Part shown: positions 673 to 61,092 of the stretch, in pieces | Layout of the letters: every line of letters starts with the position of its first letter | Numbering within the stretch: the stretch's first letter is position 1 | DNA from: Candidatus Collierbacteria bacterium RIFOXYD2_FULL_45_13 | GTDB taxonomy: Bacteria > Patescibacteriota > Microgenomatia > UBA1400 > MFAQ01 | DNA length: 64,000 nucleotides | Reading direction: 5' to 3' | Assembly: GCA_001774685.1 (NCBI GenBank) | Contig: MFAS01000001.1 | Location: 159,557-223,556, forward strand | Made by a program: the position numbers and the translations under genes | Notes under the pieces: model-generated | Seen by the model: only the letters and a program-made list of their open reading frames with translations | Database searches by the model: none | Told to the model about the DNA's origin: nothing

Positions 673-1085
673 GGGGACGACAGGAATCGATGGAATGGTA
701 CGTTTACAGACGCAAGCCTCCTTTGGTAATAGGAGTCAAACAGACCAAAACACAACTGTCAATAAAGAAGACAAGTTACTTGGTTTCGTGGCTAGTGGAG
801 TCAAATCCCTCGCTAACGAAATCAAATCTTTCACTCCCGTTTACGCTTTTGCCTAAACTGTAGTTTAAAGACGTCTTGAGAGCCGGCGGATCCCGGGCTA
901 CTTTCAGGGCGAAAAAATACCGGATTGAATGCTTCAAGTTTGATTTAGGCTTGAAGACTAACTTTTTCTAAATCGACCATAAAGTGTTCTTGTTTGCCTG
1001 AAGCTTTATGGAAAATCGGCAATCTAAGCTTGTAGACTCTGTAATCAGATTACTCCAGACGAGGGTTCGACTCCCTCCGTCTCCA
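673..1085 (+). ncRNA. ssrA: tmRNA (ssrA)
   Basis: - The 5' end GGGGACGACAGGAATCGATGG matches the tmRNA 5' consensus.
- The 3' end carries a T-arm GAGGGTTCGACTCCCTC followed by CGTCTCC-A, which pairs with the 5' GGGGACG as a 7-bp acceptor stem.
- CCA is not encoded.
- An internal tag frame GCT AAC GAA ... TAA at 812..856 encodes ANEIKSFTPVYAFA*, with the typical A-N-D/E start and hydrophobic A-x-A end.
- The gene lies directly downstream of smpB. Confidence 0.8.
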
Positions 1086-1121
1086 CAAACAAAAAGTCCA
1101 CCCTCGCGGGAGAGTTTTTGG

Positions 1122-8611: not shown

Positions 8612-8921
8612 AACCTCTCTTGCCGCAGAATCACTGGAGAACCTCTATGCTCCAGCCAAAGCCTTGAGCGGGGGTAGTGGGGCCACTCTCGCCAAACTCA
8701 TCAATCCTCTGATATACAACGTACTTATTATCTCCGGCCTGATTGCCTTTATTGTCATCATCATCGCTGGCTTCAACTATGTTTCGGCAGGTGGTGACAA
8801 GGGCAAAATTGAACAAGCACAAAACATGCTAAACTATTCAATAATAGGCCTGATATTAGTCGTCCTCGCCTTTTTAATTACTCGGGTCATTGGAGCGATC
8901 TTCGGCTTTAAATTCTTTTAA
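8601..8921 (+). CDS. T4SS pilin-like protein (VirB2/TrbC-like), paralog
   Basis: TM1 (LIISGLIAFIVIIIAGFNYV) - loop SAGGDKGKIEQAQN - TM2. The GGDK loop motif is shared by the tandem paralogs. Confidence 0.6.
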   Translation: MVIKTSLAAESLENLYAPAKALSGGSGATLAKLINPLIYNVLIISGLIAFIVIIIAGFNYVSAGGDKGKIEQAQNMLNYSIIGLILVVLAFLITRVIGAIFGFKFF

Positions 8922-8926
8922 CAAAA

Positions 8927-9286
8927 ATGAACATCCTCAACCAACTTATCAATAGTGCTTATGCCACCGATGTCATTGGCACCATTGATTTACCCGCCGG
9001 AATCCCCAAAGAAACCAGCCAGACCACCGACATTATCTCGGCCCTTATTCGTTTTATCGTTGTTGTGGGCGGAGTTTTTGCCCTTTGGCAATTACTGTCC
9101 GGGGGTTTTCAATTTATCAGCTCCGGCGGAGACAAAGGTAAGTTGGCCGAAGCTCAAAATAAAATTACCATGAGTCTGGTCGGCCTAGTCATCATCGCCG
9201 CCAGTTTCATCATCATCGCCATTATCAGCAAGGTTCTTTTTGATGATTTCGGAGCCATCCTCGCCCCCAAATTACAATCCATCTGA
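8927..9286 (+). CDS. T4SS pilin-like protein, paralog
   Basis: Loop FISSGGDKGKLAEAQNKIT between two TM helices. Confidence 0.6.
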   Translation: MNILNQLINSAYATDVIGTIDLPAGIPKETSQTTDIISALIRFIVVVGGVFALWQLLSGGFQFISSGGDKGKLAEAQNKITMSLVGLVIIAASFIIIAIISKVLFDDFGAILAPKLQSI

Positions 9287-9287
9287 T

Positions 9288-9653
9288 ATGAACAGATTCA
9301 TCCCTACCATACACGCCGCCGACATACCTCTTGGATCAGAAGTCGGTGGAGTAGGCCCTTTTCAAACAGCCATCAGTGGAGGAGTACAGGCCGGACTTGG
9401 TAATTTGCTCTCTAATCTTATTACCACCATGACCGTCATCGGAGGTCTAGCCTTTGTTGTCTATTTCTCGCTTGGAGCGCTCGAATGGATTACCGCCGGT
9501 GGAGACAAAACGAAAGTCTCCGGTGCCCAAACCCAGATGACTCAGGCCGCCATCGGCTTGATCGCCATTGTCGCCTCCTACTTTATTATCGGTATCGTCG
9601 GAGCTGTACTCGGTTTTGATATTCTCAATCCGTTTGCCGCACTAAAACTCTAA
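9288..9653 (+). CDS. T4SS pilin-like protein, paralog
   Basis: Loop WITAGGDKTKVSGAQTQMT between two TM helices. The start is taken as the ATG at 9288, right after the upstream TGA. Confidence 0.6.
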   Translation: MNRFIPTIHAADIPLGSEVGGVGPFQTAISGGVQAGLGNLLSNLITTMTVIGGLAFVVYFSLGALEWITAGGDKTKVSGAQTQMTQAAIGLIAIVASYFIIGIVGAVLGFDILNPFAALKL

Positions 9654-9659
9654 ATATTT

Positions 9660-10010
9660 ATGTCTATCACAATCATCCGCCCCGCCCACGCTGTCAACGA
9701 AATTGTTAACAGAGCCCTTTCTCCCAATGTCCCTCAAGATCCCGGTGGCGGTTTGGCTTTTTATATAGCCAGTCTCTGGCAAACAGTTGTCACCGTCGGA
9801 GGAATTGCCTTTATCATCTATCTAGTCTGGGGCGGTATCGAGTATCTCACCTCCGGTGGGGACAAGGCCAAAATTGATGACGCCCAGAAAAAAATCACCA
9901 GTTCGGTTATCGGTGTCGGTATTTTAGTTGCCTCCTACGCCATTACCTATTTCATTCAAGCTGTCTTCAAGATTAATATTCTCAAACCTGTTTTTCCCAG
10001 CGCACTATGA
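9660..10010 (+). CDS. T4SS pilin-like protein, paralog
   Basis: Loop YLTSGGDKAKIDDAQKKIT between two TM helices. Confidence 0.6.
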   Translation: MSITIIRPAHAVNEIVNRALSPNVPQDPGGGLAFYIASLWQTVVTVGGIAFIIYLVWGGIEYLTSGGDKAKIDDAQKKITSSVIGVGILVASYAITYFIQAVFKINILKPVFPSAL

Positions 10011-10366
10011 TATTCCAAAAACTTTCTCAGGTATTTGCCGCCGATATCGAGCTCCCTATTGGAGAAATGGCCACCAAAAATAACTTTTTCGGCTATACCT
10101 GTATCGGACATCTCGTCAGCAATCTCGTCGCCGCCGCTTTTATCGTTGCCGGTATCGCTTTCTTTGTCTATCTCGTCATGGGAGGCATCCAGTGGCTTAC
10201 TTCCGGCGGAGACAAGGGAAAAATTGAGTCATCCCAGAAGATGATCTCTGCCGCCCTGATCGGCCTAGCCATCGTCGCTTCTAGCTATGCAGTCTATATG
10301 ATTGTTCTCACCTTCTTCGGTATCAATCTAGACGCCCTCTGTACCGACAATCCTCTCGGTAATTGA
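10007..10366 (+). CDS. T4SS pilin-like protein, paralog
   Basis: Loop WLTSGGDKGKIESSQKMIS between two TM helices. There is a 4-nt overlap with the upstream gene. Confidence 0.6.
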   Translation: MIFQKLSQVFAADIELPIGEMATKNNFFGYTCIGHLVSNLVAAAFIVAGIAFFVYLVMGGIQWLTSGGDKGKIESSQKMISAALIGLAIVASSYAVYMIVLTFFGINLDALCTDNPLGN

Positions 10367-10428
10367 CAATTAAAAAATCATATATAATAGTCAGTAATAC
10401 GCATAACAATTATTAAAAAATAAAAAAC

Positions 10429-10770
10429 ATGTCTTTAATTCCTCAAGCATTGGCAGCAGCTGGCACCATCGGAGTTCCCCAACCGACAGGTATGAAGATC
10501 ACCGATATTGGCGTCCTTATCAGCCGTGTTATTTCTCTAGCTTTCATCGTTGCCGGTATTCTCACTTTCGCTTTTCTCGTCATGGGAGGCATTGAGTGGC
10601 TTACTTCCGGAGGAGACAAGGGCAAAACCGAACAGGCCAGAAATCGTATCACCGCCGCGGTTGTCGGTCTTGCGATCGTGGCTGCTTCCTGGGCTTTAAT
10701 GAAACTAATCGCCTATTTCTTTGGCGTTGATGTCTTCGAGGGAAACATCAACATCCCCAAACCCTACTAA
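10429..10770 (+). CDS. T4SS pilin-like protein, paralog
   Basis: Loop WLTSGGDKGKTEQARNRIT between two TM helices. Confidence 0.6.
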   Translation: MSLIPQALAAAGTIGVPQPTGMKITDIGVLISRVISLAFIVAGILTFAFLVMGGIEWLTSGGDKGKTEQARNRITAAVVGLAIVAASWALMKLIAYFFGVDVFEGNINIPKPY

Positions 10771-10798
10771 GAATTTAGTATTAGAAAAAAACAAATTA

Positions 10799-10818
10799 CC
10801 GCCGTCAGGCGGTTTTTT
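10799..10818 (+). terminator. rho-independent terminator after the pilin array
   Basis: ccgcc-gtca-ggcgg followed by TTTTTT. Confidence 0.6.
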
Positions 10819-10830
10819 GTATCCTTTTTT

Positions 10831-10861
10831 AACTTGAGTTTTTGAGTTCTTGAGTTTTTTT
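10831..10861. repeat. tandem TTGAGTTYT repeat (3 units), intergenic copy
   Basis: aacTTGAGTTTTTGAGTTCTTGAGTTTTTTT. Related copies lie at 8311..8342, 33907..33925, 44524..44561 and 53105..53131. Confidence 0.5.
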
Positions 10862-10879
10862 ACGATATAATTATTCTCA

Positions 10880-11236
10880 ATGACCCTTTCTTTCATTCCC
10901 CAAGCATACGCCGCCAGCAATTGGTCTGGAGAATGCGTTGGTCAAAATGTCGCTGGTGTGGACGCCACAGATGTGGCTTCTATCCAAGGAATTACCTGTT
11001 TGCTAAGAAACGTTCTTTCCCCTATACCAGCCCTCATTGCTCTTGCCGCCGTGGGCATCATTATCATGGCCGGCATTCGTCTAACTACTGCCGGATCGGA
11101 TCCCAAAGCAGTAGCTAGTGCTTGGAACATGTTCACTTGGGCCGTCATTGGTCTTATCCTGCTCTCCGCCGTGTGGCTGGCTCTTGTCCTTATCGAAAAC
11201 TTCACTGGTGCCAAGGTTACCCAATTCGGCATTTAA
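10880..11236 (+). CDS. T4SS pilin-like protein (divergent paralog)
   Basis: Signal-like N-terminus, then TM1 - loop TTAGSDPKAVASAWN - TM2. Confidence 0.5.
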   Translation: MTLSFIPQAYAASNWSGECVGQNVAGVDATDVASIQGITCLLRNVLSPIPALIALAAVGIIIMAGIRLTTAGSDPKAVASAWNMFTWAVIGLILLSAVWLALVLIENFTGAKVTQFGI

Positions 11237-19537: not shown

Positions 19538-19576
19538 TATTTTTGAAAAATATATCTAATCTCAGCCTCAATTATA

Positions 19577-21553: not shown

Positions 21554-21682
21554 CTCACTCTCATCTTAACATTTTCACCCTTCAGACATATACAATATTT
21601 TTCCCAAATCTCACCAGACACGATATACTTAACTAGACTCATCGAACCAGCAACCAACAACTTAAGAACTTCTCACCAAGAC

Positions 21683-22600
21683 ATGGCCATTCAACAACAT
21701 CCACTACCGCAAGACATCAGCTCCTATCGCTTTCGCTTGATCGGTGACATGACCATCAAGCAGTTCGCTTCGCTGGGTATCTCCATTGTTGTTGCCGTCA
21801 TTGTTTATAGCCTTCCCTTACCCTTCTTTTTCAAATACCCGCTCTCTTTTATCTTTATCGTTCTCGGAGTCGGTATGGCTTTTGTTCCTGTTCAGGGACG
21901 CTCCTTAGATGTCTGGATCCTCGCCTTTATCCGTTCCATCTATTCCCCTACCCAATATGTCTGGAAACGCTCCAAGGATATTTCCGAAGAGATGACACTC
22001 CCCACCGGACCTCTTGTGGGAACTCAAGCGGTGTCCAACGCCAGAATAGAGCTCACTACCGCTTCACCAAACGCTCCGATTGTCTCCATTACCCCCGCTT
22101 CCGCTCCCCAAGCTCCGACTCCATCAATCTCTACGGAGCCCCCCCTTGTCGCTCCATCAACCTCTCCTGTGTCGATCACCCCCCCACCGGTTTCTCCTGT
22201 CCAAACAGAACAACCTCTTTCTGTACCCTCTTCACATCCAATATCTGATTCCACTTTAAACCCTACGGCCACGGCGACAACAACCAGCCTCTCTGCACCA
22301 ACCACTCCCCAAGTCGCCCAGCTTCCAATTCCTTTCACCCCCACCACTCCCAACACCCTTGTTGGTTTGACTCTTACACCCGAAGGAAAAATACTTGACG
22401 GAGTTCTGGTAGAAATTCAACACAATGGCCTTACTTCTCGAGCCACCAAAAGTAACAAACTCGGTCAGTTTATGTTTGCCCGTCCTCTGGAAAATGGCCT
22501 CTATCAAATCCTGGCCGAAAAAGAAGACTATACTTTCTCCCCCTATTCTCTAGATCTTACTGGCGAAATTATCCGACCTCTCAAAGTACAAGCAATCTAA
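21683..22600 (+). CDS. PrgI/VirB3-like membrane protein with Pro/Thr-rich linker and C-terminal carboxypeptidase-regulatory-like beta domain
   Basis: N-terminus PQDISSYRFRLIGDMTIKQFASLGISIVVAVIVY plus a second TM helix resembles PrgI-family (VirB3-analogue) proteins that precede VirB4 in Gram-positive-type T4SS. The C-terminus GKILDGVLVEIQHNGLTSRATKSNKLGQFMF...GLYQI is CarbopepD_reg-like. The start is chosen at the ATG at 21683. Confidence 0.45.
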   Translation: MAIQQHPLPQDISSYRFRLIGDMTIKQFASLGISIVVAVIVYSLPLPFFFKYPLSFIFIVLGVGMAFVPVQGRSLDVWILAFIRSIYSPTQYVWKRSKDISEEMTLPTGPLVGTQAVSNARIELTTASPNAPIVSITPASAPQAPTPSISTEPPLVAPSTSPVSITPPPVSPVQTEQPLSVPSSHPISDSTLNPTATATTTSLSAPTTPQVAQLPIPFTPTTPNTLVGLTLTPEGKILDGVLVEIQHNGLTSRATKSNKLGQFMFARPLENGLYQILAEKEDYTFSPYSLDLTGEIIRPLKVQAI

Positions 22601-22602
22601 AC

Positions 22603-23253
22603 ATGCCTGAAAACATCAAGTCATCGACCCAGGAAAGTCTCGATATTTACACTATCAAAAATCATCTTGTCTTTTTAAAAGACGGCTCTTGTTCGCTTGT
22701 CCTAAAAACTACAGCTATCAACTTCAATCTGCTTTCCGAAGAAGAGCAAGATGCCACTATCTATGGCTATGCCGGCTTACTGAACTCACTCTCTTTCTCT
22801 ATACAAATTCTTATCCGATCTCAACGAAAAAATATTTCCGATTATATTAATTTGTTAGACAATCGTATTCAGATTACTCCATCTCAAAAAGTCAAAGAGC
22901 AACTTCTTTCCTACCGTCAATTTGTCAAATCTCTCGTCAAAGAAAACCGTGTTCTGGAGAAAAAGTTTTATGTCATCGTTTCCTTTTCGGCTATCGAATT
23001 GGGTGTCACCAAATCAACCTTTAATCCCATGGCCAAAACCACCCAAAAACCTCCTTTTGACATCTCCTACATTGAAGAAAAAGCTTCGATGGCTCTCTAT
23101 CCTCGGCGCGATCACATTATTCGTCAGTTCGCTAGAATCGGACTCAAGGCCAGCCAGCTCACCACAAGCGAATTGGTGACTTTGTTTTACACTATTTATA
23201 ATCAAGGCAGTGTCACTCAGGCCATCACCCCGGGCAGATCCAACGCCTCCTAA
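22603..23253 (+). CDS. VirB4 N-terminal domain encoded as a separate ORF (split VirB4, part 1)
   Basis: LDIYTIKNHLVFLKDGSCSLVLKTTAINFNLLSEEEQDATIYGYAGLLNSLSFSIQILIRSQRK follows the N-terminal pattern of VirB4/TrbE proteins: (I/L)..hhhLkDGS....h.h.Gh.F.l...E......Y..LL. Recalled from Agrobacterium VirB4 and TrbE. Confidence 0.5.
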   Translation: MPENIKSSTQESLDIYTIKNHLVFLKDGSCSLVLKTTAINFNLLSEEEQDATIYGYAGLLNSLSFSIQILIRSQRKNISDYINLLDNRIQITPSQKVKEQLLSYRQFVKSLVKENRVLEKKFYVIVSFSAIELGVTKSTFNPMAKTTQKPPFDISYIEEKASMALYPRRDHIIRQFARIGLKASQLTTSELVTLFYTIYNQGSVTQAITPGRSNAS

Positions 23254-23282
23254 AACCTGTCGTCTTCAGTTATACTTAATTC

Positions 23283-25175
23283 ATGGCTTTGAACCTTTTT
23301 TCTCTTGGCAAAAAACAAAGCGTACCGCCTGCTACTGCACCTGTCTCTACACCGGTTCCTAACGTTACATCAACAAACTCTTCTTCCGTCGATCAAAAAT
23401 CTGCCGCCTCCAGTCAATCCATCCAAGATATTATTGCCCCCTCTGCCGTTGAAGTCGATTTTTCTCATATCAAAATCGACGATGTCTATATCCGCACCCT
23501 CTTCGTCACCGGCTACCCTCGCTATGTCTCCGCCAACTGGTTATCCCCCCTGGTCAACTTCAATCACTCTTTAGACATTTCCATGTTTGTCTACCCTTCA
23601 GATTCCAAGGATACCTTAGAGAGTCTCAGGAGACGCATCGCCGAGATGGAAGCGGAAATTAATACCGATATCGAACGAGGCCGCATCCCCCGTGCCGCCA
23701 CCGAAGCGGGCTTGGAAGACGCTAAAGTTCTCCAATCACAGCTGGTCAAGGGAGCCGAAAGATTTTTCCAGTTCTCTCTATATATCAGCATCTCCGCTGA
23801 TTCCGAAAAAGAACTAAACACCTCCACCGCTCAGATTCAGTCCATGTTGGCTTCTCTCTTGATTATCAGCAAAATTGCTTCCCTCTCTATGGAAGATGCT
23901 TTCAAAAGCACCCTTCCTTACTGCAAGGACAAGCTGATGTTAACGAGAAATATGGACACGACGGCTCTCTCTACTACTTTTCCTTTTACTTCCTCAGAAC
24001 TTTCTGATAACCAAGGGATTCTTTACGGCGTCAATGCCCACAACGACTCCCTGGTTATCTTCGACCGTTTCTCTCTGGAAAATGCCAACATGCTGATACT
24101 GGCCACTTCCGGTGCCGGCAAGTCATACGCTGTCAAGCTCGAGATCCTTCGCTCTCTGATGTTCGACTGTCAAGTCATTATTCTCGATCCTGAAAACGAG
24201 TATGAGATGGTCACTAAGTCTGTCGGCGGCAACTATCTCTCTTTTTCTACCAGCTCTCAACACAAAATTAATCCTTTCCAGATAGCCCGCCCCAAAGAAA
24301 GTACCGAAGATGAAATGGGTTATAAATATCTTTTTCTCATGTCTCTCCTCAAGATCATGATTGGCCAGATGGACCCTATCGAAGAGGCTACTATGAATAG
24401 GGCTCTCGTCCTGACCTATCGTCAAAAAGGCATTACCGAAGACCCAGCCACCCATACTCTCGAACCACCTCGCATGGAAGATCTTTATCGCTCTCTTATT
24501 GGTATGGAAGAATCAGTCAGTAAAACATTGGCCGCCAGACTCGAGCGGTTTGTCATGGGTGCCGTCAAGGGAATTTTCGACCAGCAAAGCAATATTGACA
24601 TCAACGCTCCCATCACCGTTTTTACTCTTCGAGATACCGCCGATGAGATTCGGCCCATCATCATGTTTATGATTCTGGACTTTGTCTGGAATGAAGTGCG
24701 AAAAAATCTTCGCAAAAGAATGCTTGTCGTCGATGAGGCCTGGTACCTCATGCGTTACGAAGACTCTGCCAAAATTCTTCAGGGCTTCGTTAAACGCGCA
24801 CGTAAGTATTACTTCGGTGTATCTATCATTTCTCAGAACGTTGATGACTTTCTTGGTTCGGCTTATGGTAAAGCCATTATCACGAACTCCGCCCTCAAAC
24901 TACTCCTCAAACAGTCATCCGCTGCCATCAACCAGATCTCCGAAGTTTTCTATCTTTCTCAAGGCGAAAAACAACTATTACTTTCGGCCGGAGTCGGAGA
25001 GGGTATTTTCTTTGCCGGTATGAACCACGTCGCCATCAAAATTATTTCCTCCGCCGATGAACATGCCTTAGCCACCAGTAAGCCTGCAGAAATTTTGGAA
25101 AGACAGAAACAAGAAAAAGCCCAAGCAGCCGCCGAAGCCGCTTCCCAAATACAACCACAGCTAAGTAATTCCTAA
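23283..25175 (+). CDS. virB4: VirB4/TrbE/PrgJ-family T4SS ATPase (split VirB4, part 2)
   Basis: DIIAPSAVEVDFSHIKIDDVYIRTLFVTGYPRYVSANWLSPLV...DISMFVYPSD matches the Gram-positive VirB4 (Orf16/TcpF/PrgJ) middle-domain pattern. Walker A is ILATSGAGKSYAVK and Walker B is RMLVVDEAWYLM. The start codon is directly preceded by TATACTTAATTC. Confidence 0.8.
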   Translation: MALNLFSLGKKQSVPPATAPVSTPVPNVTSTNSSSVDQKSAASSQSIQDIIAPSAVEVDFSHIKIDDVYIRTLFVTGYPRYVSANWLSPLVNFNHSLDISMFVYPSDSKDTLESLRRRIAEMEAEINTDIERGRIPRAATEAGLEDAKVLQSQLVKGAERFFQFSLYISISADSEKELNTSTAQIQSMLASLLIISKIASLSMEDAFKSTLPYCKDKLMLTRNMDTTALSTTFPFTSSELSDNQGILYGVNAHNDSLVIFDRFSLENANMLILATSGAGKSYAVKLEILRSLMFDCQVIILDPENEYEMVTKSVGGNYLSFSTSSQHKINPFQIARPKESTEDEMGYKYLFLMSLLKIMIGQMDPIEEATMNRALVLTYRQKGITEDPATHTLEPPRMEDLYRSLIGMEESVSKTLAARLERFVMGAVKGIFDQQSNIDINAPITVFTLRDTADEIRPIIMFMILDFVWNEVRKNLRKRMLVVDEAWYLMRYEDSAKILQGFVKRARKYYFGVSIISQNVDDFLGSAYGKAIITNSALKLLLKQSSAAINQISEVFYLSQGEKQLLLSAGVGEGIFFAGMNHVAIKIISSADEHALATSKPAEILERQKQEKAQAAAEAASQIQPQLSNS

Positions 25176-25177
25176 CC

Positions 25178-27709
25178 ATGGCCAATCACGAACAGGACAT
25201 CTATGATCTTGGACAGGTTCAAAAATATTTTCCAAAAAAATTAGAGGATCTTTCAGAACAAGAAAGAGCAGAGGCCTTACGACTTTTCAGTATAGGAGCT
25301 GGGTTTTATAACCAGTTTTTTCGAAAAGGTTCCGGTCACAAAGTAACCCCCTATACTTTTCAAAAAGAAGCCTCACCGGACGAAATTCAGCAAATCATAA
25401 ATTATTTGTCGAAAGAAGAGGAGGAGGAAACCAAAAAAACCAAAACTCCGGCCAAAGAAGAGTCGTCGGTTCCACCGGAGATCGAAGGTCTTGTCGAAGA
25501 ATACCGTCAAAATCAAGAACGTCTAAACGAAGAAGAGGTCAAATCCAGTGGTCAACGCACCGTCGCCGAACAAGTCAAAATTGCTCTCTCCCACTCCAAA
25601 ATCCGTGAGCAAATTATGGCCAATCGCCGAGAACGTGAAGCCGCAGGTGAAAAGTTTCAAGACCCAAACGAAGTAATCGTTAATCTGGGAGATCCAAAAA
25701 GCCAGAGTATCAACGCTGTTCTTTCCACCACCAAAAAAGCCATTGACTCTATCGCTTACACGTATCCTGGTTTTTCTTCTCTCTCAACTTCAGTTCAAAG
25801 ACAGGTCATCAACGATGCTGTTGACCTAAGTTTAGCTGGTATTGATGATTTAGACGTCGCTATTCAAACCGCCTCCATCCAACTAGGTGTTGATAGGATT
25901 CCCTCTAGCTACATTTCTGAGGTAGCTCGTGAGCTAAGTGATATAGAGAAAGATTCCGAAGAGCTGGAAGAAAGTCTTTCACAAAACGAATATGCCATTG
26001 ACAGTTTAAAAGCTAAAACCACACTATCTGACTCGGAACAACAGCAGTTAAATAAACTTCTTAAAGAAAATAACATTCTCACCTCCGGACTTAACAAGGC
26101 TTCTACCCGTTTCATCGATTTTGTCGATTCACAGAATGAAAGATATGGTCAATATCTTGCCGAAAAAAGGGACCACCTCAGAACCAACCCGGATCTGGAT
26201 GAACTTACCCTTGCCGCAAACACCAAAAGAGACAATCTTCACGAAAATCTTCTCAAAAACGGAGTTACTCCTAGAGGTTTTTCCGATCTGGACAAAATTG
26301 CCGGTTTGGTCACCGTCATTCAAAAAGACATTCCTGGCCTTCATCAATATGCCAGTTACGAAGGAGCTCAAGCCGCCGCCATCATTGGAGGAGGTCAGGG
26401 CCAGGCAATACTGGCCTATTCCAAAGGAGTCACCGGTGGAGTACTACGCCAAGCGGAAAAATATGCCGCTGCTAATCCCAATTCTGCTACAGCCAAATTT
26501 CTCGCCAACAATACTAAGGTTTTTCAAGCCGCCAGACGCTCCATTCGTGAAATAGAAAATTCCAAACTTGGAAAAGATGTTCTTCAGGCAGTCAGTAAGG
26601 GCAATCAAATCATCGGTATCGTCACCAATCCAGTCGGCGCTCTCAAACAATGGGCCGGTCAAAAAGCCGGCGAACAAATAGCTAAGAGGTTGGTTGAAAG
26701 ATTCGGGAGTGAGGCTCTCAAGAATGCCGCCAATCTGTTGTTGAAGGAGGGTCTCAAAGATGGAGTCAAAAAGCTAGCCTCTCAAGCTCTATCCAAAGTG
26801 GCTATCAAAGTTGCTACATGGGCGGCTTTAAAGTTAGGAATCAGTCTTACTGCCGAATCTTTGAACGCTATCATGCCCGGGCTAGGAGTTATTGTCGACA
26901 TTGTTGTTCAAGCCGTAATATATATCGCCGAAAAAACTATTGGTGCTGGCTATCAAGCCATGCAAAGTACGGCTAGAGAAATCTGGGGAGAGGAACTCAA
27001 ACCCCGCGATTTACTCGCTCCTCTGGCAGCATTGGGTGGACTCGCGGTTGCTCTATTTGGTACATTGAAGGCTGCTCAAAGAACCGCCCAAATAGCTGTA
27101 GTATCCGCCGCAGGTATCGTTATAGGATCTGTCAGTATTCTGTTAATTTATCTTTCTCTCGCCTTCCTAATTGCCCCCATGCTTTCCGCTTTGGTGCAAC
27201 TTGATAGTTTGGAGAAGGTTAAGTATTCCGAATATGCCGCGCCAGTCACCGCTACCAACTGTTCCAACGTACCTTGGCCCTTTTCAGACACTCATCCAAT
27301 TACACAAGGCCCTCGTCAAACAACTACCAGTTGTACCCACGCCGGCGACATCGCAGAATCTGCTGATTTCAGTGTCACTGTCGGAACTCCTATATTAAGC
27401 ATTTTCTCCGGAAAGATCGACTTCGCCGGATGGAGCGATGATGGCTATGGAAACAATGTTAAAATGACGGCAACCACCGACACGGGCACAAGCTTTACTG
27501 TCATTTACGGTCACTTCTCCAAAGTTTCAGTGACTACAGGTAGTACTGTTCAAGTTGGAGCTCAGTTGGGCTTATCGGGAAGCACTGGCTACAGCACAGG
27601 CCCTCATCTCCATCTCGGCTATCGTGGTATCGAATACAACTCGTGTCCTGCTGGCAATTTTAGAATTAACGAAAACTGTTGCACAACCGATACTTGCAAT
27701 CAGCCATAA
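25178..27709 (+). CDS. membrane protein with C-terminal M23 (LytM-type) peptidase domain; candidate T4SS cell-wall hydrolase (VirB1 analogue)
   Basis: C-terminus HAGDIAESADFSVTVGTPILSIFSGKIDFAGW...GYSTGPHLHLGYRGIEY carries the M23 HxxxD and HxH motifs. Two or three TM helices precede it around residues 600-660. The N-terminal region of about 600 aa is cytoplasmic and coiled-coil rich. Confidence 0.7.
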   Translation: MANHEQDIYDLGQVQKYFPKKLEDLSEQERAEALRLFSIGAGFYNQFFRKGSGHKVTPYTFQKEASPDEIQQIINYLSKEEEEETKKTKTPAKEESSVPPEIEGLVEEYRQNQERLNEEEVKSSGQRTVAEQVKIALSHSKIREQIMANRREREAAGEKFQDPNEVIVNLGDPKSQSINAVLSTTKKAIDSIAYTYPGFSSLSTSVQRQVINDAVDLSLAGIDDLDVAIQTASIQLGVDRIPSSYISEVARELSDIEKDSEELEESLSQNEYAIDSLKAKTTLSDSEQQQLNKLLKENNILTSGLNKASTRFIDFVDSQNERYGQYLAEKRDHLRTNPDLDELTLAANTKRDNLHENLLKNGVTPRGFSDLDKIAGLVTVIQKDIPGLHQYASYEGAQAAAIIGGGQGQAILAYSKGVTGGVLRQAEKYAAANPNSATAKFLANNTKVFQAARRSIREIENSKLGKDVLQAVSKGNQIIGIVTNPVGALKQWAGQKAGEQIAKRLVERFGSEALKNAANLLLKEGLKDGVKKLASQALSKVAIKVATWAALKLGISLTAESLNAIMPGLGVIVDIVVQAVIYIAEKTIGAGYQAMQSTAREIWGEELKPRDLLAPLAALGGLAVALFGTLKAAQRTAQIAVVSAAGIVIGSVSILLIYLSLAFLIAPMLSALVQLDSLEKVKYSEYAAPVTATNCSNVPWPFSDTHPITQGPRQTTTSCTHAGDIAESADFSVTVGTPILSIFSGKIDFAGWSDDGYGNNVKMTATTDTGTSFTVIYGHFSKVSVTTGSTVQVGAQLGLSGSTGYSTGPHLHLGYRGIEYNSCPAGNFRINENCCTTDTCNQP

Positions 27710-27714
27710 CGATT

Positions 27715-28722
27715 ATGATAAAAATAAATACCCATCTTTCCAAAAAGACGATCCTATTCGGAACTGCTATCCTCTTGCCTCTCGTAATTCTCACAAGTTA
27801 TTACTTGGCCTCCCGAACATCAAAAAACCAAGCAGCAACCATCAATCCTGAACCTGTTTCCACCAAAGAATCCTCTCCTTCTGCCGATCAAAATCCTTTC
27901 CAGAACAAATCCACCAAGTTAGAAGTAAATTGGGAAAATGCCAAAATCAATTTTCAAAAAGGGAACTACCCTACGTACGAGACAACACCTATTATCAATG
28001 ATGTAAATGTCGACTCGTTTGCCTCAATTCTCGGTTTTTCCGGCACAGATAGAAAGACATTACCAGACAATGATGCAATCTGGAAAAAAGGAAAGGAAAC
28101 ACTCCTTTATATTTCATCGGAGAACACTTTGGATTATCAAAATGAAAAGGTCTATGTTGGACCTTCCAGATTCAACGAAGCCAACCTTATCAACCGGGCC
28201 AAACAATATGCCTCCAATCTGTTCTCTCATACGGAGCTAGTACCTTCTCCTGTTACCTATTTCGGGGATAATGCCTATGAGCCAAATATTACCAATGTCA
28301 ACAACTCACTCTTAGCCCAAATCAACTTTAACCAAACTATAGGCGGCCATCTTGTAATACCGGCCAATCTAAAATCAGAGTACTTCATTTCGTTGTTTAT
28401 TACCCCTGATCTAACTATTCAAACATTCAAAAGCTCTCCCGGCTATCAATCGGCCAGAATTGCTTCAGGGGCTTCACTGGCAGATTTTGATAAGCTTAAG
28501 ACTATTCCCGCTAACTATTTTAGAAAAATAACAAACATGCCATTAGAAATAGAATCTATCATTACTTTCTCCAAAAAACTATATTATTCTGTCTCCTCTG
28601 TTGACATTGCTTATACAATTATTGGCTCCAAGGCCGTACCTGTTTACTATATCGACGGCACTGTTTACGGAGATAACATAAAAGTCAGTGACCATGTTGT
28701 TTACTTGGCGCCCTTGAACTAG
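27715..28722 (+). CDS. membrane-anchored extracytoplasmic hypothetical protein (335 aa)
   Basis: N-terminal TM anchor (ILFGTAILLPLVILTSYYLA). No known domain. Confidence 0.5.
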   Translation: MIKINTHLSKKTILFGTAILLPLVILTSYYLASRTSKNQAATINPEPVSTKESSPSADQNPFQNKSTKLEVNWENAKINFQKGNYPTYETTPIINDVNVDSFASILGFSGTDRKTLPDNDAIWKKGKETLLYISSENTLDYQNEKVYVGPSRFNEANLINRAKQYASNLFSHTELVPSPVTYFGDNAYEPNITNVNNSLLAQINFNQTIGGHLVIPANLKSEYFISLFITPDLTIQTFKSSPGYQSARIASGASLADFDKLKTIPANYFRKITNMPLEIESIITFSKKLYYSVSSVDIAYTIIGSKAVPVYYIDGTVYGDNIKVSDHVVYLAPLN

Positions 28723-29831
28723 TTCTGCGTCCTCACCGGCATCACCACCTGAATCCAGCCATCATCATCTTCTCGCTTAAAGACACTTGGCTTCAACTCT
28801 CCTTCAGTCTCCCATACCACCCTTTCACTATTATTCACTCCAAGGTAGTCTAGTAAATATCTGGCATTGAAAGCCACTGTCAGCCCGTCTCCTTCAACTT
28901 CCGTTTCGATCTCTGTTGAATTACTTCCAAGTTGGCTACTTTCAGCTTTTACGATTAGCTTTTCTCCTTCAATTGCCATCTTCACAATGTTGGCATTGTC
29001 CCTGGCAAACAAATTGGCTCTTTTGACGGCCTCTAATAGCTCTTCTCTGTTAAAGATGGCTTTTGTTGAATAGGTGTTCGGCATTATCTGTTGGTAGGGT
29101 GGAAACTCCCCTGCAATCAGTCGAGATGAGACTTCCATGTCGGCGATAGAAAATATTACCTGTTGATTATCTTTATCAAACTCAATTCCAAAAGAATCTT
29201 CTCCTGTTTCGGCCAACACTTTAGATACTTCCTGAAGAGACCTTGCCGGAAGAATAAACTTTGTGTTTTTCTCAACACTGGTTTTTACCACGTTAAGTTT
29301 GTCGACACATAGTCTATATCCATCCGTAGCCGCCAATACTGTTCTGTTTTCTTCCAAGCTCCAGAGAACTCCTGTCAACACCGGCCTAGTATCGTCCTTA
29401 GCCGCCGAAATACATACCCTATCCATCTTTTGCCGAAACTCACCACTCTTCAAAGTAATTTGAGTTTTCTTTGCTCTAGGAATGCTTGGAAAATCTTCCA
29501 CTCCTTGGCCTACCACCTCAGCATTAATTCCTTTCGCCAAGACTTTCAAAGAATTCTTTTCTGCCGAAAGAGTCACATTTCCTGCTGGCAGACTGGCAAC
29601 TAGTTCTCCAAAAAGTTTTGCGGGCACTACCATTTCACCTTCTTCGTCAATCTTGGCCGGTAACTTCACCCAAAAACTCACTTCCAAATCCGTTGACACC
29701 AAATTCACTTCATCCTTTGTTATTTTCAAAAGTACTCCCGAAAGAATTGGAAGCTGAGGTCTTACACCAATACCTCTATTTACAATTCCCAGATATTTCT
29801 TTAAATCCGTTGACTGTACAGTTATCTTCAT
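28719..29831 (-). CDS. dnaN: DNA polymerase III beta subunit (sliding clamp)
   Basis: MKITVQSTDLKKYLGIVNRGIGVRPQLPILSGVLLKI... is the typical DnaN N-terminus. Three-domain length of 370 aa. A TATACT hexamer lies 8 nt upstream of the ATG. Confidence 0.9.
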   Translation of the reverse strand: MKITVQSTDLKKYLGIVNRGIGVRPQLPILSGVLLKITKDEVNLVSTDLEVSFWVKLPAKIDEEGEMVVPAKLFGELVASLPAGNVTLSAEKNSLKVLAKGINAEVVGQGVEDFPSIPRAKKTQITLKSGEFRQKMDRVCISAAKDDTRPVLTGVLWSLEENRTVLAATDGYRLCVDKLNVVKTSVEKNTKFILPARSLQEVSKVLAETGEDSFGIEFDKDNQQVIFSIADMEVSSRLIAGEFPPYQQIMPNTYSTKAIFNREELLEAVKRANLFARDNANIVKMAIEGEKLIVKAESSQLGSNSTEIETEVEGDGLTVAFNARYLLDYLGVNNSERVVWETEGELKPSVFKREDDDGWIQVVMPVRTQN

Positions 29832-30217
29832 TTGTTTCTAGTATACATAATCTTCATGGCCATTCCGACCGAATGTTTTATGACATTGTAATCTGTTTAA
29901 GTTATTTGTTATTTCTTTACTGTTATATTGTTTTATTTAAATAAAAACAGTAGTGAATAGTAGTAGAAGTGGTGGACAAGTGGACAATAGCTTTACCACT
30001 TGCCTACTTTCTCTGTTGTTAATCTTTTATCGACTCTTACATCCACCCTTTCTATTCAAAAGTCAACAAATCCCTTCTTGACCGATTGCTATCAACTCTC
30101 TTTCTGTGTGGATTCTTTTCTGAATAACTTGATTGCTTATCCACCCATTTCTAAACAATCTAATACTTCTTCACAGTTGTTGAAGATATCCACAGAGCGT
30201 GGATAAGATGTGGATAG
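29832..30217. other. oriC: putative chromosomal replication origin (oriC) between dnaA and dnaN
   Basis: Cluster of DnaA-box-like 9-mers:
- TGTGGACAA x2 (complement of TTGTCCACA) at about 29967..29985.
- GATATCCACA at 30186.
- GTGGATAAG and TGTGGATAG at 30199..30218.
An AT-rich stretch at about 29880..29950 is a candidate DNA unwinding element. Confidence 0.6.
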
Positions 30218-31597
30218 TTAAGTGTATAACGCTTGCTTCAAAGCCATCACCTTTCGCCGTATATCCATGTTTTTTTCAATTTCCAGTTCCATTTTATCGC
30301 ATGCATGCATGACAGTGGTGTGATCTCGACCTCCCATTAGTTCTGCCACCTCCGTTAAGTTTAGTTTTAATGTTTCTCTCAGAATGTACATCGCGATATG
30401 TCTCGCCACTACCAAGTCAGCCTTCCGGCTTTCTCCTAAAAGATCTTTGTTTCTAAAATCAAAATACTTAGCCACAGTCGAAATTACCTTGATCGGTCGC
30501 ACCTTAATATCTTTCACTGTATTGGCCGGGAGTCCCATCGTCTGCTGAACCATCTCTCTCGTCAAGACTCCTCCGTCAATACTGGCTCCTGTTGCCAGTC
30601 TGACAAAGGTACCCTCAAGCTCGCGGGCGTTCGTTGGGAAACTATTAGCAATCAGTTCAAAGGCACTATCCTCAACCTCAGCTTTAATATCCAGCGCCCG
30701 CTGGCGCAATATCGCCACTCTCATTTCATAATCCGGTAATCCAATGTCCACCATCATTCCTCCAAGGAACCTGCTTCGCAGTCTATCCTCCAAACCGACA
30801 ATCTCCTGAGGCTTCCGGTCACTTGTCATGATGATCTGTGCTTGTTTATTTGTCAGCTCGTTAAAAGTATGGAAAAACTCTTCTTGAGTTGAATCCTTTC
30901 CACCAAAGAATTGGACATCGTCTACTAGTAGCGCTCCCACTTGCCGGTATTTCTTTTTAAAGGCATCCGTCATTTTTGATTTGAAAGAACCAACCAGGTC
31001 GTTAGTAAATTGCTCACTGGTCACACAGACTACTTTACCAACTCCTTTTCTGACTAGTTCGTGCCCTACAGCATGCATCAAATGTGTCTTCCCTACTCCG
31101 ACCCCTCCATAGATAAATAGTGGATTGTGTCTGGTGCCCGGGTAATCTACCACTGCTTTGGCCGCCGCAAAAGCTAAGCGGTTCGAACTCCCCACCATAT
31201 ATGATTCAAAGACGTAACGCGGGTTTAGATTAGTTCCTGTTTGTCTATTCTCTTCCGGCGGAGTAAAAAGTCCAATATTTGTCTCCCTAATCTCAGAGTC
31301 TTTAAGCTCTTTCTTACTGGCCTCAACTTCTCTTGTTGCCTCTACCACAACCAAGGCCATATCACATTTCTTGCCGGTGATCTTCTCCGCTGCCTGTTTG
31401 ATAATGCTGTAATACTTGGTTTCAATGGTGTGGCTTAAGAACATCGAAGAGGCCGCCAGTTCTAAAAGAAGTCTTTGTTCGTCAATTGGTGTCACCGATC
31501 TGAGAAAACAAGGCTTGATAAAGCCCGCAAAACTGGCGGGAGACATGGAAACACCTAACTCGCCGCAAATGCTATGCCACAACTTCTCACTGTCCAT
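30218..31597 (-). CDS. dnaA: chromosomal replication initiator DnaA
   Basis: Walker A FIYGGVGVGKTHLMHAVG. Box VII/DNA-binding domain region ARHIAMYILRETLKLNLTEVAELMGGRDHTTVMHACDKM. Likely start MDSEKLWHSICGEL at 31597. The longest ORF extends to 31672. Confidence 0.9.
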   Translation of the reverse strand: MDSEKLWHSICGELGVSMSPASFAGFIKPCFLRSVTPIDEQRLLLELAASSMFLSHTIETKYYSIIKQAAEKITGKKCDMALVVVEATREVEASKKELKDSEIRETNIGLFTPPEENRQTGTNLNPRYVFESYMVGSSNRLAFAAAKAVVDYPGTRHNPLFIYGGVGVGKTHLMHAVGHELVRKGVGKVVCVTSEQFTNDLVGSFKSKMTDAFKKKYRQVGALLVDDVQFFGGKDSTQEEFFHTFNELTNKQAQIIMTSDRKPQEIVGLEDRLRSRFLGGMMVDIGLPDYEMRVAILRQRALDIKAEVEDSAFELIANSFPTNARELEGTFVRLATGASIDGGVLTREMVQQTMGLPANTVKDIKVRPIKVISTVAKYFDFRNKDLLGESRKADLVVARHIAMYILRETLKLNLTEVAELMGGRDHTTVMHACDKMELEIEKNMDIRRKVMALKQALYT

Positions 31598-31721
31598 ACG
31601 CCCATTCTCACTACTTATCCACATTTTTACAACCCCCAATTTACCCAAAAAGAATAATACTATCCACATCACCTCCTTTGAGGGTATAATGTCCTGTTCC
31701 CATCAATGTTAAAATAATCAT

Positions 31722-37228: not shown

Positions 37229-37462
37229 ACTCTCAACTTTCACAAAGAAAAAATTCAGCAGAATGAGGATTCCTTGGCTATGCATAGTATGTGGACAAGT
37301 CTAATTGATCCTGTGCCCAGATTTTCACATGTAGAAAGTAAGTACAAGAAAAGGAAACACCAGGCAGAAGAGATGCAAAAAAACGAGGCTAGAAAAAAAG
37401 CAAAATAAGTAAGAACGAAAAAAAGTAAAAGTATAAAACAGGAAATCATCTATACTTAATTC

Positions 37463-61075: not shown

Positions 61076-61092
61076 ATAGAAACAATTATTTG

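What the first reader, a model, noticed from the sequence alone, without database searches (positions are those of the whole stretch)
22603..25175. VirB4 ATPase split into two ORFs, the second with its own leaderless promoter motif
The 216-aa ORF 22603..23253 carries the characteristic VirB4/TrbE N-terminal pattern (I..hhhLKDGS...F.L..EE..Y..LL). The 630-aa ORF 23283..25175 carries the middle domain plus Walker A and Walker B. Together they come to about 846 aa, a normal VirB4 length.

The two parts are in different frames and separated by 30 nt. The second part begins immediately after the conserved TATACTTAATTC motif, so it can be expressed independently. This is either a genuine two-gene VirB4, a recent frameshift, or an assembly error.
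Basis: partly seen in the sequence, partly recalled or inferred. Interest (0 to 1): 0.6.

Follow-up and report, generated by a model that had tools for sequence, protein, structure and literature searches.

The report
Natural two-gene VirB4 (TrsD + ATPase)

Summary
ORF1 (22603..23253, 216 aa) is the VirB4 N-terminal domain. ORF2 (23283..25175, 630 aa) is the rest of VirB4, with Walker A and B motifs. The gap is 29 nt and the frames differ.

It is not a frameshift or an assembly error:
- Stop codons in both frames mean no single indel can fuse the ORFs.
- The identical ORF1 protein occurs in at least 55 collection blocks, including independent assemblies.
- No fused case was found in 70 species-level loci. 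About 50 have the ATPase gene directly downstream.
- Among close relatives the gap is 23-45 nt and all three frame offsets occur.

The halves are exactly complementary to fused orthologues in syntenic loci of Candidatus Amesbacteria. ORF1 5-209 matches P0144 6-208, and ORF2 51-618 matches P0144 213-782. A model of that fused protein overlays full-length R388 TrwK/VirB4 (TM 0.74).

The arrangement matches TrsD/TrsE of plasmid pGO1. It was reported across Patescibacteria in 2025 (PMC12102498).

A 16-nt block (TTnnGTTATACTTAAA) ending 3 nt before the ATG is conserved in 27 of 28 Collierbacteria-level sequences, inside an otherwise variable spacer. The same -10 box precedes about 10 other genes in the window.

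Small additions: fused and split forms interconvert repeatedly, and the break carries a conserved -10-only promoter.

The parts
21601..21629 (+). Sigma-70-like promoter candidate upstream of prgI (TTCCCA-17-TATACT). It contains one of the four TATACTTAA cores (21624..21632).
   Evidence: Inferred only; it lies about 53 nt before the prgI ATG.
21683..22600 (+). PrgI / VirB3-like membrane protein with a C-terminal beta-sandwich-like extension. Its stop is 2 nt before the ORF1 ATG.
   Evidence: Pfam PF12666 PrgI, E 5.5e-9. The gene call of 305 aa in L001-L002 maps to 21683.
22603..23253 (+). ORF1: TrsD-like protein, a standalone VirB4 N-terminal domain (216 aa).
   Evidence: NCBIfam hits to the N-terminal parts of VirB4 models and to TrsD/TraD. 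Precomputed Pfam PF26593 TraC-like. 49% identity, E 2e-61, to residues 6-208 of the fused VirB4 P0144. Its model's top 11 PDB hits are all TrwK/VirB4. Profile against pGO1 TrsD gives E 1.9e-4 over 179 columns.
23254..23282 (+). 29-nt intergenic spacer between the two VirB4 halves. No SD-like sequence and no terminator-like structure.
   Evidence: In close relatives the spacer is 23-45 nt with variable sequence and frame offset.
23265..23280 (+). Conserved block TTnnGTTATACTTAAn. The -10 hexamer TATACT is at 23271..23276, with G at -14 and no -35 element. It is placed so that transcription would start at or next to the A of the ATG at 23283 (leaderless mRNA).
   Evidence: Conserved in 24-28 of 28 Collierbacteria-level sequences at each position, against near-random flanks. 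TATACT spacing to the ATG is 6 nt in 25, 5 nt in 2, absent in 1. TATA[AC]T lies 8-10 nt before the ATG in 14 of 26 more distant loci. Genome-wide enrichment at gene starts.
23283..25175 (+). ORF2: VirB4 ATPase lacking the N-terminal domain (630 aa). Residues 1-11 are a conserved MALNLFSLGKK peptide. Residues about 12-48 are a low-complexity linker. From residue about 49 (DIIAP) come the middle domain and the P-loop domain, with Walker A at 24102..24125 and Walker B at 24720..24743.
   Evidence: NCBIfam CD1110 VirB4, 359 bits against a cut-off of 325, model positions 179-733. Pfam P-loop_TraG and CagE_TrbE_VirB. PDB 4ag5 VirB4, E 1e-45. 59% identity to P0144 213-782. 26% identity, E 1e-45, to pGO1 TrsE starting at the equivalent residue.
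25178..27709 (+). Large protein with a C-terminal M23 peptidase domain, probably the T4SS cell-wall hydrolase (VirB1 role). It starts 2 nt after the ORF2 stop.
   Evidence: Pfam PF01551, E 2e-19. Same position in all syntenic loci.
8601..11236 (+). Array of seven tandem VirB2-like T4SS pilin genes belonging to the same secretion system.
   Evidence: Pfam PF18895 T4SS_pilin hits for the five tested. Translations share the SGGDKGK motif.
50554..53985 (+). T4CP/VirD4-like ATPase fused to a NUDIX domain, preceded by TATACTTAACTC directly before its ATG. Possibly part of the same system.
   Evidence: Pfam TrwB_AAD_bind, TraG-D_C and NUDIX. Motif.

Best explanation
[quoted passage not shown] The window is from a Candidatus Collierbacteria genome (class Microgenomatia).

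ORF1 is a TrsD-like protein, that is, the VirB4 N-terminal domain made as its own polypeptide. ORF2 is the remainder of VirB4: the middle domain plus the P-loop ATPase.

By analogy with the solved R388 machine, the VirB4 N-terminal domain contacts VirB3 and VirB8 and anchors the ATPase ring to the membrane. I infer that TrsD is made together with the VirB3-like PrgI, since the two genes are 2 nt apart. It would form the membrane-proximal platform, and the ATPase half would dock onto it in trans.

The ATPase half is separated from trsD by a short non-coding spacer. That spacer carries a conserved -10-only promoter placed so that transcription starts at the ATG. ORF2, and the tightly coupled M23 hydrolase gene behind it, can therefore be expressed from a leaderless mRNA independently of prgI-trsD. 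This solves translation initiation at a start with no Shine-Dalgarno sequence.

Shown here: complementarity of the halves, conservation of the split, variability of the spacer and frame, conservation and positional enrichment of the -10 box, and structural equivalence of the fused relative to full-length VirB4.

Inferred: physical association of the two halves, the PrgI-TrsD contact, actual promoter activity, and the leaderless transcription start.
For: Complementary halves:
- ORF1 maps to model positions 13-141 and ORF2 to 179-733 of the CD1110 VirB4 model.
- ORF1 5-209 = P0144 6-208 (E 2e-61) and ORF2 51-618 = P0144 213-782.
- P0144 lies in a locus with the same gene order: PrgI, VirB4, M23, 332 aa, dnaN, dnaA.
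- The model of P0144 overlays full-length TrwK/VirB4 with TM 0.74 over 833 columns, E 1e-26. ATPase-domain-only structures reach TMq 0.39.
- The ORF1 model's top 11 PDB hits are all TrwK.

Conservation of the split:
- 1113 homologues of ORF1, and the top 120 are all 211-234 aa.
- 1570 representatives have the domain, always N-terminal, and only one of the top 150 is fused.
- The exact protein is in at least 55 collection blocks.
- None of 70 species loci is fused, about 50 have the ATPase directly downstream, and gap and frame vary.

Known precedent:
- pGO1 has TrsC-TrsD-TrsE in the same order and with the same break point.
- The literature reports TrsD next to virB4 in 1,664 Patescibacteria cases, and the Southlakia homologue is essential.

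Promoter:
- Footprint of 16 nt.
- The box lies 4-10 nt before 10 of 50 gene starts against 1 of 812 internal start-like codons.
- No -35 element, no terminator and no SD in the spacer.
Against: - There is no transcript, protein or interaction data.
- The ORF1-alone model is only moderate (pLDDT 71) and its TrwK match is weak (E 6e-3, TMq 0.38).
- ORF1 does not reach the curated cut-off of the TrsD/TraD NCBIfam model (25 against 200 bits). The profile match to pGO1 TrsD has only 47% probability.
- The -10 box is dispensable in some lineages: one Collierbacteria species (L032) and the L035-L040 group have overlapping or abutting genes without it.
- Read-through transcription from the prgI promoter is not excluded, so the internal promoter may be auxiliary.
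- In Gracilibacteria and Peribacteria the TrsD-like gene is not next to a VirB4 gene (also stated). Adjacency is therefore not universal.
Confidence: 0.85

Rival explanations
1. Recent frameshift or nonsense mutation. A once-continuous virB4 was broken in this lineage and is a pseudogene, or is decaying.
For: Fused orthologues of 783-897 aa exist in related Microgenomatia, so a continuous gene is a possible state.
Against: - Both halves are under strong purifying selection across dozens of species. ORF1 homologues are 70-96% identical with many invariant columns.
- The split is present in every Collierbacteria-level species and far beyond.
- The spacer is non-coding, of variable length and frame.
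- Stops at 23251, 23277 and 23290 prevent repair by one indel.
- The ATPase half has its own conserved N-terminal peptide and start-site signal.
Confidence: 0.01
2. An assembly or sequencing error created an artificial break.
For: None beyond the a priori possibility for metagenome-assembled genomes.
Against: The identical ORF1 protein and the same layout occur in independent NCBI, ENA and Logan assemblies, including a 1.09-Mb contig. They also occur in 70 different species genomes.
Confidence: 0.01
3. Programmed ribosomal frameshifting or stop read-through produces a full-length VirB4 from the two ORFs.
For: The ORFs are adjacent, in different frames, and only 29 nt apart.
Against: - Among close relatives the frame offset is 0, +1 or +2 and the gap is 23-45 nt. 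No fixed recoding geometry is conserved.
- Stops occur in both relevant frames inside the spacer.
- The conserved block is a -10-like box, not a slippery heptamer with a downstream structure.
Confidence: 0.01
4. ORF1 is an accessory T4SS protein that only descends from a VirB4 N-terminal domain and now does something else. The truncated ATPase would work without any N-terminal domain.
For: [quoted passage not shown]
- In Gracilibacteria and Peribacteria the gene is not adjacent to virB4.
- Many family members carry long disordered tails with their own terminal motifs, suggesting extra partners.
Against: - The ATPase half lacks exactly the segment that ORF1 supplies.
- Fused and split forms alternate on the ATPase tree, with at least 6 changes. 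The two states therefore appear functionally interchangeable.
- The Southlakia homologue is essential, like the other T4SS parts.
Confidence: 0.1
5. The conserved TTnnGTTATACTTAAA block is not a promoter but another signal. It could be a regulator binding site or an SD-independent translation-initiation or standby element on a polycistronic prgI-trsD-virB4 mRNA.
For: - The block extends beyond a plain -10 hexamer (TT at -18/-17 and TTAAA at -6 to -2).
- The extended core TATACTTAA is shared by only four sites in the window, three of them before T4SS-related or large genes. That could indicate a common regulator.
- There is no -35 element.
Against: - TATA[AC]T is the canonical -10 consensus.
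- The same hexamer, with other flanks, lies 5-10 nt before about 10 unrelated genes including dnaN.
- The spacing of 6 nt puts the usual start position on the A of the ATG.
Confidence: 0.15

Closest known systems
TrsD + VirB4 of the Patescibacteria chromosomal T4SS (Quinonero-Coronel et al. 2025, Microb Genom, PMC12102498; essentiality from Wang et al. 2023 as cited there)
   Same: - A TrsD-like gene sits immediately upstream of virB4.
- PrgI/VirB3-like gene, VirB2-like pilin array, and proximity to dnaA/dnaN are all present.
- The class is Microgenomatia.
- The window shows all of these.
   Different: Nothing essential. The paper describes TrsD as remotely homologous to the VirB4 N-terminal portion with no assigned function.

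In the passages I retrieved by term search (I did not read the whole paper) none of the following came up:
- exact complementarity of the two halves
- fused orthologues
- the conserved promoter at the break
TrsD/TrsE of Staphylococcus aureus conjugative plasmid pGO1 (and TraD/TraE of pIP501-type plasmids), MPF_FATA class
   Same: - Same gene order: VirB3-like TrsC, TrsD (227 aa), TrsE (672 aa)..., cell-wall hydrolase.
- ORF2 aligns with TrsE from ORF2 residue 61 to TrsE residue 48. The break point and the roughly 50-aa leader are therefore equivalent.
- The ORF1 profile aligns nearly end to end with TrsD.
   Different: - Sequence similarity of the N-terminal proteins is remote (24% identity, E 1.9e-4; below the NCBIfam cut-off).
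- pGO1 is a conjugative plasmid with relaxase genes annotated on the record. Here the system is chromosomal and next to the replication origin genes.
- The pGO1 genes are 14 nt apart, without the -10 box seen here.
Full-length VirB4 (R388 TrwK, PDB 7O3J-series/8RTD; Agrobacterium VirB4)
   Same: - The ATPase core has Walker A and B motifs.
- The N-terminal domain fold matches: the fused relative's model overlays TrwK with TM 0.74.
- A VirB3-like gene lies adjacent.
   Different: - There are two polypeptides here instead of one.
- The system is monoderm-type, with no VirB7, VirB9 or VirB10.
VirB3-VirB4 fusions (e.g. Campylobacter and Actinobacillus systems, mentioned in PMC12102498)
   Same: They show that domain boundaries around the VirB3/VirB4-NTD/ATPase module are evolutionarily plastic.
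   Different: The direction is opposite (fusion rather than fission). No VirB3-VirB4 fusion is seen here.
Leaderless transcripts with a -10 box about 6-7 nt upstream of the start codon (Mycobacterium, Deinococcus, many Actinobacteria; e.g. PMC3898074)
   Same: TANNNT-type -10 box at a fixed short distance from the ATG, no SD, and a weak or absent -35 element.
   Different: Not experimentally mapped in Microgenomatia. Here the site is internal to an operon-like cluster, at a protein-domain break.

Membership tests
VirB4 / TrbE / CagE T4SS ATPase (ORF2) | P-loop ATPase domain with Walker A and Walker B motifs, homologous to the VirB4 C-terminal domain | tested here: met
   Walker A ATSGAGKS (residues 274-281) and Walker B MLVVDEAW (480-487). 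PDB 4ag5 VirB4, E 1e-45. Pfam P-loop_TraG, E 3e-26.
VirB4 / TrbE / CagE T4SS ATPase (ORF2) | Score above the curated family cut-off of a VirB4 equivalog model | tested here: met
   NF045971 conju_CD1110, 359 bits against a cut-off of 325.
VirB4 / TrbE / CagE T4SS ATPase (ORF2) | Single polypeptide containing the N-terminal domain plus the ATPase domain | tested here: not met
   ORF2 covers only model positions 179-733 of 752 and P0144 residues 213-782. The N-terminal domain is supplied by ORF1.
VirB4 / TrbE / CagE T4SS ATPase (ORF2) | Encoded within a T4SS gene cluster next to a VirB3-like gene | tested here: met
   PrgI (PF12666) upstream, M23 hydrolase downstream, pilin array at 8.6-11.2 kb.
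VirB4 N-terminal domain (ORF1) | Sequence homology to the N-terminal about 200 residues of bona fide full-length VirB4 | tested here: met
   49% identity, E 2e-61, to residues 6-208 of the fused P0144. NCBIfam VirB4 models are matched in their N-terminal parts. Precomputed PF26593 TraC-like.
VirB4 N-terminal domain (ORF1) | Fold equivalent to the N-terminal domain of a solved VirB4 (TrwK) | tested here: met
   Directly: the ORF1 model's top 11 hits are all TrwK, but weakly (E 6e-3, TMq 0.38). Indirectly and strongly: the fused homologue's model overlays full-length TrwK with TM 0.74 over 833 columns.
VirB4 N-terminal domain (ORF1) | Binds VirB3 and VirB8 and anchors the ATPase to the membrane complex | not testable with these tools
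   Known for R388 from the literature (summarised). No multimer prediction or experiment was available here.
TrsD/TraD family (NCBIfam NF041427) | Score above the curated cut-off (200 bits) | tested here: not met
   25 bits, E 1.4e-5, model positions 16-144 of 201. This is remote homology only.
TrsD/TraD family (NCBIfam NF041427) | Protein of about 200-230 aa encoded immediately upstream of an N-terminally short VirB4, after a VirB3-like gene | tested here: met
   Window layout compared with pGO1 trsC-trsD-trsE. The break point is equivalent.
TrsD/TraD family (NCBIfam NF041427) | End-to-end profile similarity to pGO1 TrsD | tested here: inconclusive
   hhalign probability 47%, E 1.9e-4, 179 aligned columns, 24% identity. 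The query profile is shallow (Neff 1.6).
Patescibacteria-clade T4SS (PMC12102498) | Chromosomal cluster with VirB4, TrsD, PrgI/VirB3 and VirB2-like pilin array, often near dnaA/dnaN | tested here: met
   dnaN and dnaA lie at 28719..31672 (Pfam families listed).
Patescibacteria-clade T4SS (PMC12102498) | Absence of a relaxase in the cluster | not tested
   I did not scan every ORF of the window for relaxase domains.
Leaderless-type promoter | -10 hexamer ending about 6-7 nt before the start codon, with no SD between | tested here: met
   TATACT at 23271..23276, ATG at 23283, and no GGAGG-like sequence.
Leaderless-type promoter | Conservation of the element and its spacing among orthologous loci beyond neutral expectation | tested here: met
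   27 of 28 sequences have TATACT, 25 of them at 6 nt. The flanks at -40 to -19 are near-random.
Leaderless-type promoter | Mapped primary transcription start at the start codon | not testable with these tools
   No transcriptome data are available.

The most novel reading that the evidence does not exclude
The break in VirB4 may be a regulated joint rather than a neutral gene fission.

In Collierbacteria and several other Microgenomatia, a conserved -10-only, leaderless promoter sits exactly at the domain boundary. The membrane platform (PrgI + TrsD) and the motor (ATPase + cell-wall hydrolase) would then be expressed as two separately controlled modules.

The halves would assemble in trans through short peptides. 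Candidates are the conserved M-x-L-N-L-F..KK N-terminus of the ATPase half and, in other lineages, the LPPIAEI or PFVVEEL..DYG ends of long disordered TrsD tails.

The repeated switching between fused, overlapping and promoter-separated forms would be a natural experiment on how much independent control of VirB4 docking an epibiotic cell needs.
Probability: 0.3. Interest if true: 0.45.

Novelty: already known. Interest (0 to 1): 0.27.

Why it matters
The T4SS of Patescibacteria is one of the few systems shown to be essential for the epibiotic lifestyle of these ultrasmall bacteria. Its mechanism is unknown.

This work clarifies that TrsD, the 'most abundant T4SS component' with no assigned function, is exactly the missing N-terminal domain of the accompanying VirB4. 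Fused orthologues exist that overlay the solved R388 VirB4. This gives TrsD a concrete, testable role as the membrane or VirB3 adaptor of the motor.

For genome annotation, it warns against flagging these pairs as frameshifted pseudogenes.

The conserved -10 box at the junction, and its general enrichment a few bases before start codons, suggest that leaderless transcription is common in Microgenomatia. That is relevant for gene-start prediction in these genomes.

None of this changes the overall picture already published. The finding is ordinary for this phylum.

Tried and rejected
- The local Pfam copy gave no hit for ORF1. It lacks PF26593, which appears only in the precomputed annotations.
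- A profile search of the ORF1 family against PDB sequences found nothing.
- I hypothesised that the C-terminal 'LPPIAEI' motif of long-tailed TrsD proteins corresponds to the 'DIIAPxAIEVDF' strand at the start of the ATPase half, i.e. a shifted break point with strand complementation. I rejected this because in locus L004 the downstream ATPase still carries its own QDIIAPEAIEVDF segment.
- My first Walker A regex missed the AxxGxGKS variant. I replaced it with BLAST-based domain detection.
- The simple sigma-70 scan does not call the ORF2 site because it requires a -35 element. I therefore treat the site as -10-only.
- Literature searches for a function of pIP501 TraD or pGO1 TrsD, and for leaderless transcription in CPR, returned nothing specific.
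- Programmed frameshifting was considered and rejected.
Full report
**Observation**

They are separated by 29 nt, not 30, and lie in different frames. The 12-mer TATACTTAATTC ends at 23282, directly before the ATG.

**Family assignment**

- ORF2 scores above the curated cut-off of the CD1110 VirB4 equivalog (359 against 325 bits), but only over model positions 179-733 of 752.
- ORF1 matches positions 13-141 of the same model and the N-terminal part of a second VirB4 model. It also matches, weakly, the standalone TrsD/TraD family.
- ORF2 has Walker A and B motifs and matches the solved VirB4 ATPase domain 4AG5 at E 1e-45.
- Upstream lies a PrgI/VirB3-like gene and downstream a large M23-peptidase protein.

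**Is the split real?**

- ORF1's frame has stops at 23251 and 23290, and ORF2's frame has a stop at 23277. No single indel can join them.
- The identical ORF1 protein is recorded in at least 55 blocks of the assembly collection. These include two NCBI genomes (one a 1.09-Mb contig) and an ENA assembly, all with the same layout.
- ORF1 has 1113 word-indexed homologues, and the best 120 are all 211-234 aa at 69-94% identity.
- An exhaustive phmmer scan of 1.84 billion cluster representatives found 1570 relatives. In all 150 listed the domain is at the N-terminus.
- I examined the sequences of nine of those 150 and the C-terminal ends of all of them. Only one (P0144) continues into an ATPase. The others stop, or continue as low-complexity tails.
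- A scan of one genome per GTDB species returned 70 loci, from Collierbacteria (96% identity) to Gracilibacteria, Peribacteria and Paceibacterota (32-37%). None is fused. About 50 have the ATPase gene directly downstream. The rest are cut by contig ends or, in Gracilibacteria and Peribacteria, have no adjacent VirB4.
- Among the 27 Collierbacteria-level species the spacer is 23-45 nt (1 nt in one case) and the frame offset takes all three values.

This excludes a recent frameshift, an assembly artefact and programmed recoding.

**Are the halves one protein cut in two?**

Yes.

- P0144 (787 aa, Candidatus Amesbacteria) is a continuous VirB4 in a locus with the same gene order as the window.
- ORF1 5-209 aligns with P0144 6-208 (49% identity, E 2e-61). 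ORF2 51-618 aligns with P0144 213-782 (59% identity).
- Compared with the fused form, the split form adds only ORF1's last few residues, the spacer, and a 50-residue leader on ORF2.
- An AlphaFold model of P0144 (pLDDT 74) overlays full-length R388 TrwK/VirB4 chains with TM 0.74/0.73 over 833 columns, E 1e-26. ATPase-domain-only structures reach TMq 0.39, so the N-terminal part is included in the match.
- The model of ORF1 alone (pLDDT 71) has the same order of secondary-structure elements. Its top 11 PDB hits are all TrwK chains, though weakly.

**Fused and split states**

Searching with P0144 showed that fused forms are not rare in its neighbourhood. Of the best 120 hits, 43 are fused (738-897 aa), 68 are ATPase-only (573-667 aa) and 9 are ATPase-only with an intein.

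I built a neighbour-joining tree of the shared ATPase part, rooted on pGO1 TrsE. On it the root state is split, at least six state changes are required, and fused proteins form about five clades. The tree has no support values. I also did not verify an upstream trsD gene for every ATPase-only tip, so this is indicative only.

Junctions come in several styles:
- a spacer with a -10 box
- 4- or 8-nt overlaps (L035-L039)
- abutting genes (L032, L040)
- fusion

**What is already known**

- pGO1 of Staphylococcus aureus has the order trsC (VirB3-like), trsD (227 aa), trsE (672 aa), followed by a cell-wall hydrolase gene.
- ORF2 aligns with TrsE from ORF2 residue 61 to TrsE residue 48, which is the same break point.
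- The ORF1 profile aligns nearly end to end with TrsD (E 1.9e-4, probability 47%).
- Quinonero-Coronel et al. 2025 (PMC12102498) report TrsD as the most abundant T4SS component in Patescibacteria. They describe it as remotely homologous to the N-terminal portion of VirB4, adjacent to virB4 in 1,664 cases, with no assigned function. The Southlakia homologue is essential. They also note VirB2-like pilin arrays and proximity to dnaA/dnaN (also the review).
- The window shows all of these: seven tandem pilin genes at 8601-11236 and dnaN and dnaA at 28.7-31.7 kb.

The finding is therefore an instance of a published arrangement.

**The promoter claim**

I aligned 28 Collierbacteria-level junctions on the ATPase start codon.

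- Positions -18 to -3 (TTnnGTTATACTTAAA) are conserved in 24-28 of 28 sequences, with no three-base periodicity.
- Positions -40 to -19, including the trsD stop, are near-random.
- Downstream of the ATG the variation falls on third codon positions.
- TATACT is 6 nt from the ATG in 25 sequences, 5 nt in 2, and absent in 1.
- Fourteen of 26 more distant Microgenomatia loci keep TATA[AC]T 8-10 nt before the ATG.
- In the window, TATA[AC]T lies 4-10 nt before the start of 10 of 50 candidate genes (dnaN among them). The figure for internal start-like codons is 1 of 812, and only 48 such hexamers exist on both strands.
- There is no -35 match, no SD and no terminator in the spacer.

The simplest reading is a -10-only promoter that starts transcription at the ATG. 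This is inferred, not measured.

The neighbouring junctions (prgI-trsD and virB4-M23) are 2-nt gaps. The cluster therefore looks like two tightly coupled pairs separated by this promoter.

**Mechanism proposed**

This rests on the R388 structure literature summarised, where the VirB4 N-terminal domain contacts VirB3 and VirB8 and anchors the ATPase. TrsD would be made with PrgI and form the membrane-side adaptor. The ATPase half would be made from its own leaderless transcript together with the hydrolase and dock in trans. The association itself is untested.

**Verdict**

The frameshift and assembly-error options are refuted.

The arrangement is already known. My modest additions are the exact complementarity of the halves, the structural link to TrwK, the repeated fusion and fission, and the conserved -10 box at the break.

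Noticed in passing
window 8601-11236 (+): Seven tandem genes of 106-137 aa encoding VirB2-like T4SS pilins (PF18895 for the five tested), all sharing an SGGDKGK motif. This matches the pilin arrays reported for Microgenomatia and Saccharimonadia.
   Followed up: partly
window 50554-53985 (+): A 1143-aa protein combining T4CP/VirD4-like domains (TrwB_AAD_bind, TraG-D_C) with a C-terminal NUDIX domain. TATACTTAACTC lies directly before its ATG. A coupling-protein-NUDIX fusion is unusual.
   Followed up: partly
window 37451-40186 (+): The exact 12-mer TATACTTAATTC also directly precedes the ATG of a 907-aa DUF4012 protein. The 9-mer core TATACTTAA occurs only four times in the window (21624, 23271, 37451, 50542; 0.39 expected). 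This raises the possibility of a co-regulated promoter subclass.
   Followed up: partly
window-wide: gene starts at 6506, 10880, 11267, 14887, 23283, 29831(-), 37463, 49921, 50554, 56841: A TATAAT or TATACT box lies 5-10 nt before about a fifth of candidate gene starts (against 1 of 812 internal start-like codons). This suggests that leaderless or very short-leader mRNAs are common in this genome.
   Followed up: yes
proteins P0150, P0156, P0167, P0175, P0188, P0191, P0206 and P0213-P0269 (relatives of ORF1; e.g. locus L004 5001-6725): Standalone TrsD-like proteins of other Microgenomatia carry Q/N/P/S/T-rich tails of 50-500 aa. These end in short conserved motifs, either LPP[IL][AP]EI[KTE] or PF[VI]VEEL.D[DE]YG. 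The window's ORF1 has no such tail. Their role is unknown; they may be docking peptides.
   Followed up: partly
window 23283-23430 (ORF2 residues 1-49) and orthologues: ATPase halves of split systems begin with a conserved hydrophobic and basic peptide (MALNLFSLGKK here; MNLPKIKFF.KK or MKLPF.KKK elsewhere) followed by a low-complexity linker. Third-codon variation shows protein-level constraint. Fused forms lack it at the junction, but some carry a similar LP-rich peptide at their extreme N-terminus (P0382, P0384-P0386).
   Followed up: partly
proteins P0308, P0309, P0312, P0318, P0319, P0360, P0362, P0371, P0387: Nine relatives of the VirB4 ATPase half are 1158-1215 aa and carry intein and LAGLIDADG homing-endonuclease domains (PF14890, PF14528). 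These are intein-interrupted VirB4 genes in Microgenomatia.
   Followed up: no
loci L035-L040 and L032: In a sister group (66-71% identity) the trsD-like and ATPase genes overlap by 4 or 8 nt or abut, with no -10 box. One Collierbacteria species (L032) has a 1-nt gap and no box. The promoter is therefore lineage-specific, and translational coupling is an alternative solution.
   Followed up: partly
window 28719-31672 (-): dnaN and dnaA lie immediately downstream of the T4SS cluster, so the system sits next to the replication origin. dnaN also has a TATACT box 8 nt before its ATG.
   Followed up: partly
window 11267-14275 (+) and 16718-21553 (-): Large ORFs within the T4SS neighbourhood have no Pfam match: a 1002-aa Cys-rich protein with a signal-like N-terminus, and proteins of 939 aa and 658 aa. 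They are conserved in position in the syntenic loci L001-L003 and could be lineage-specific T4SS components or substrates.
   Followed up: no
window 673-1086 (+) and 61092-61164 (-): A tmRNA gene (tag peptide ...SFTPVYAFA) and a tRNA-Cys(GCA).
   Followed up: no
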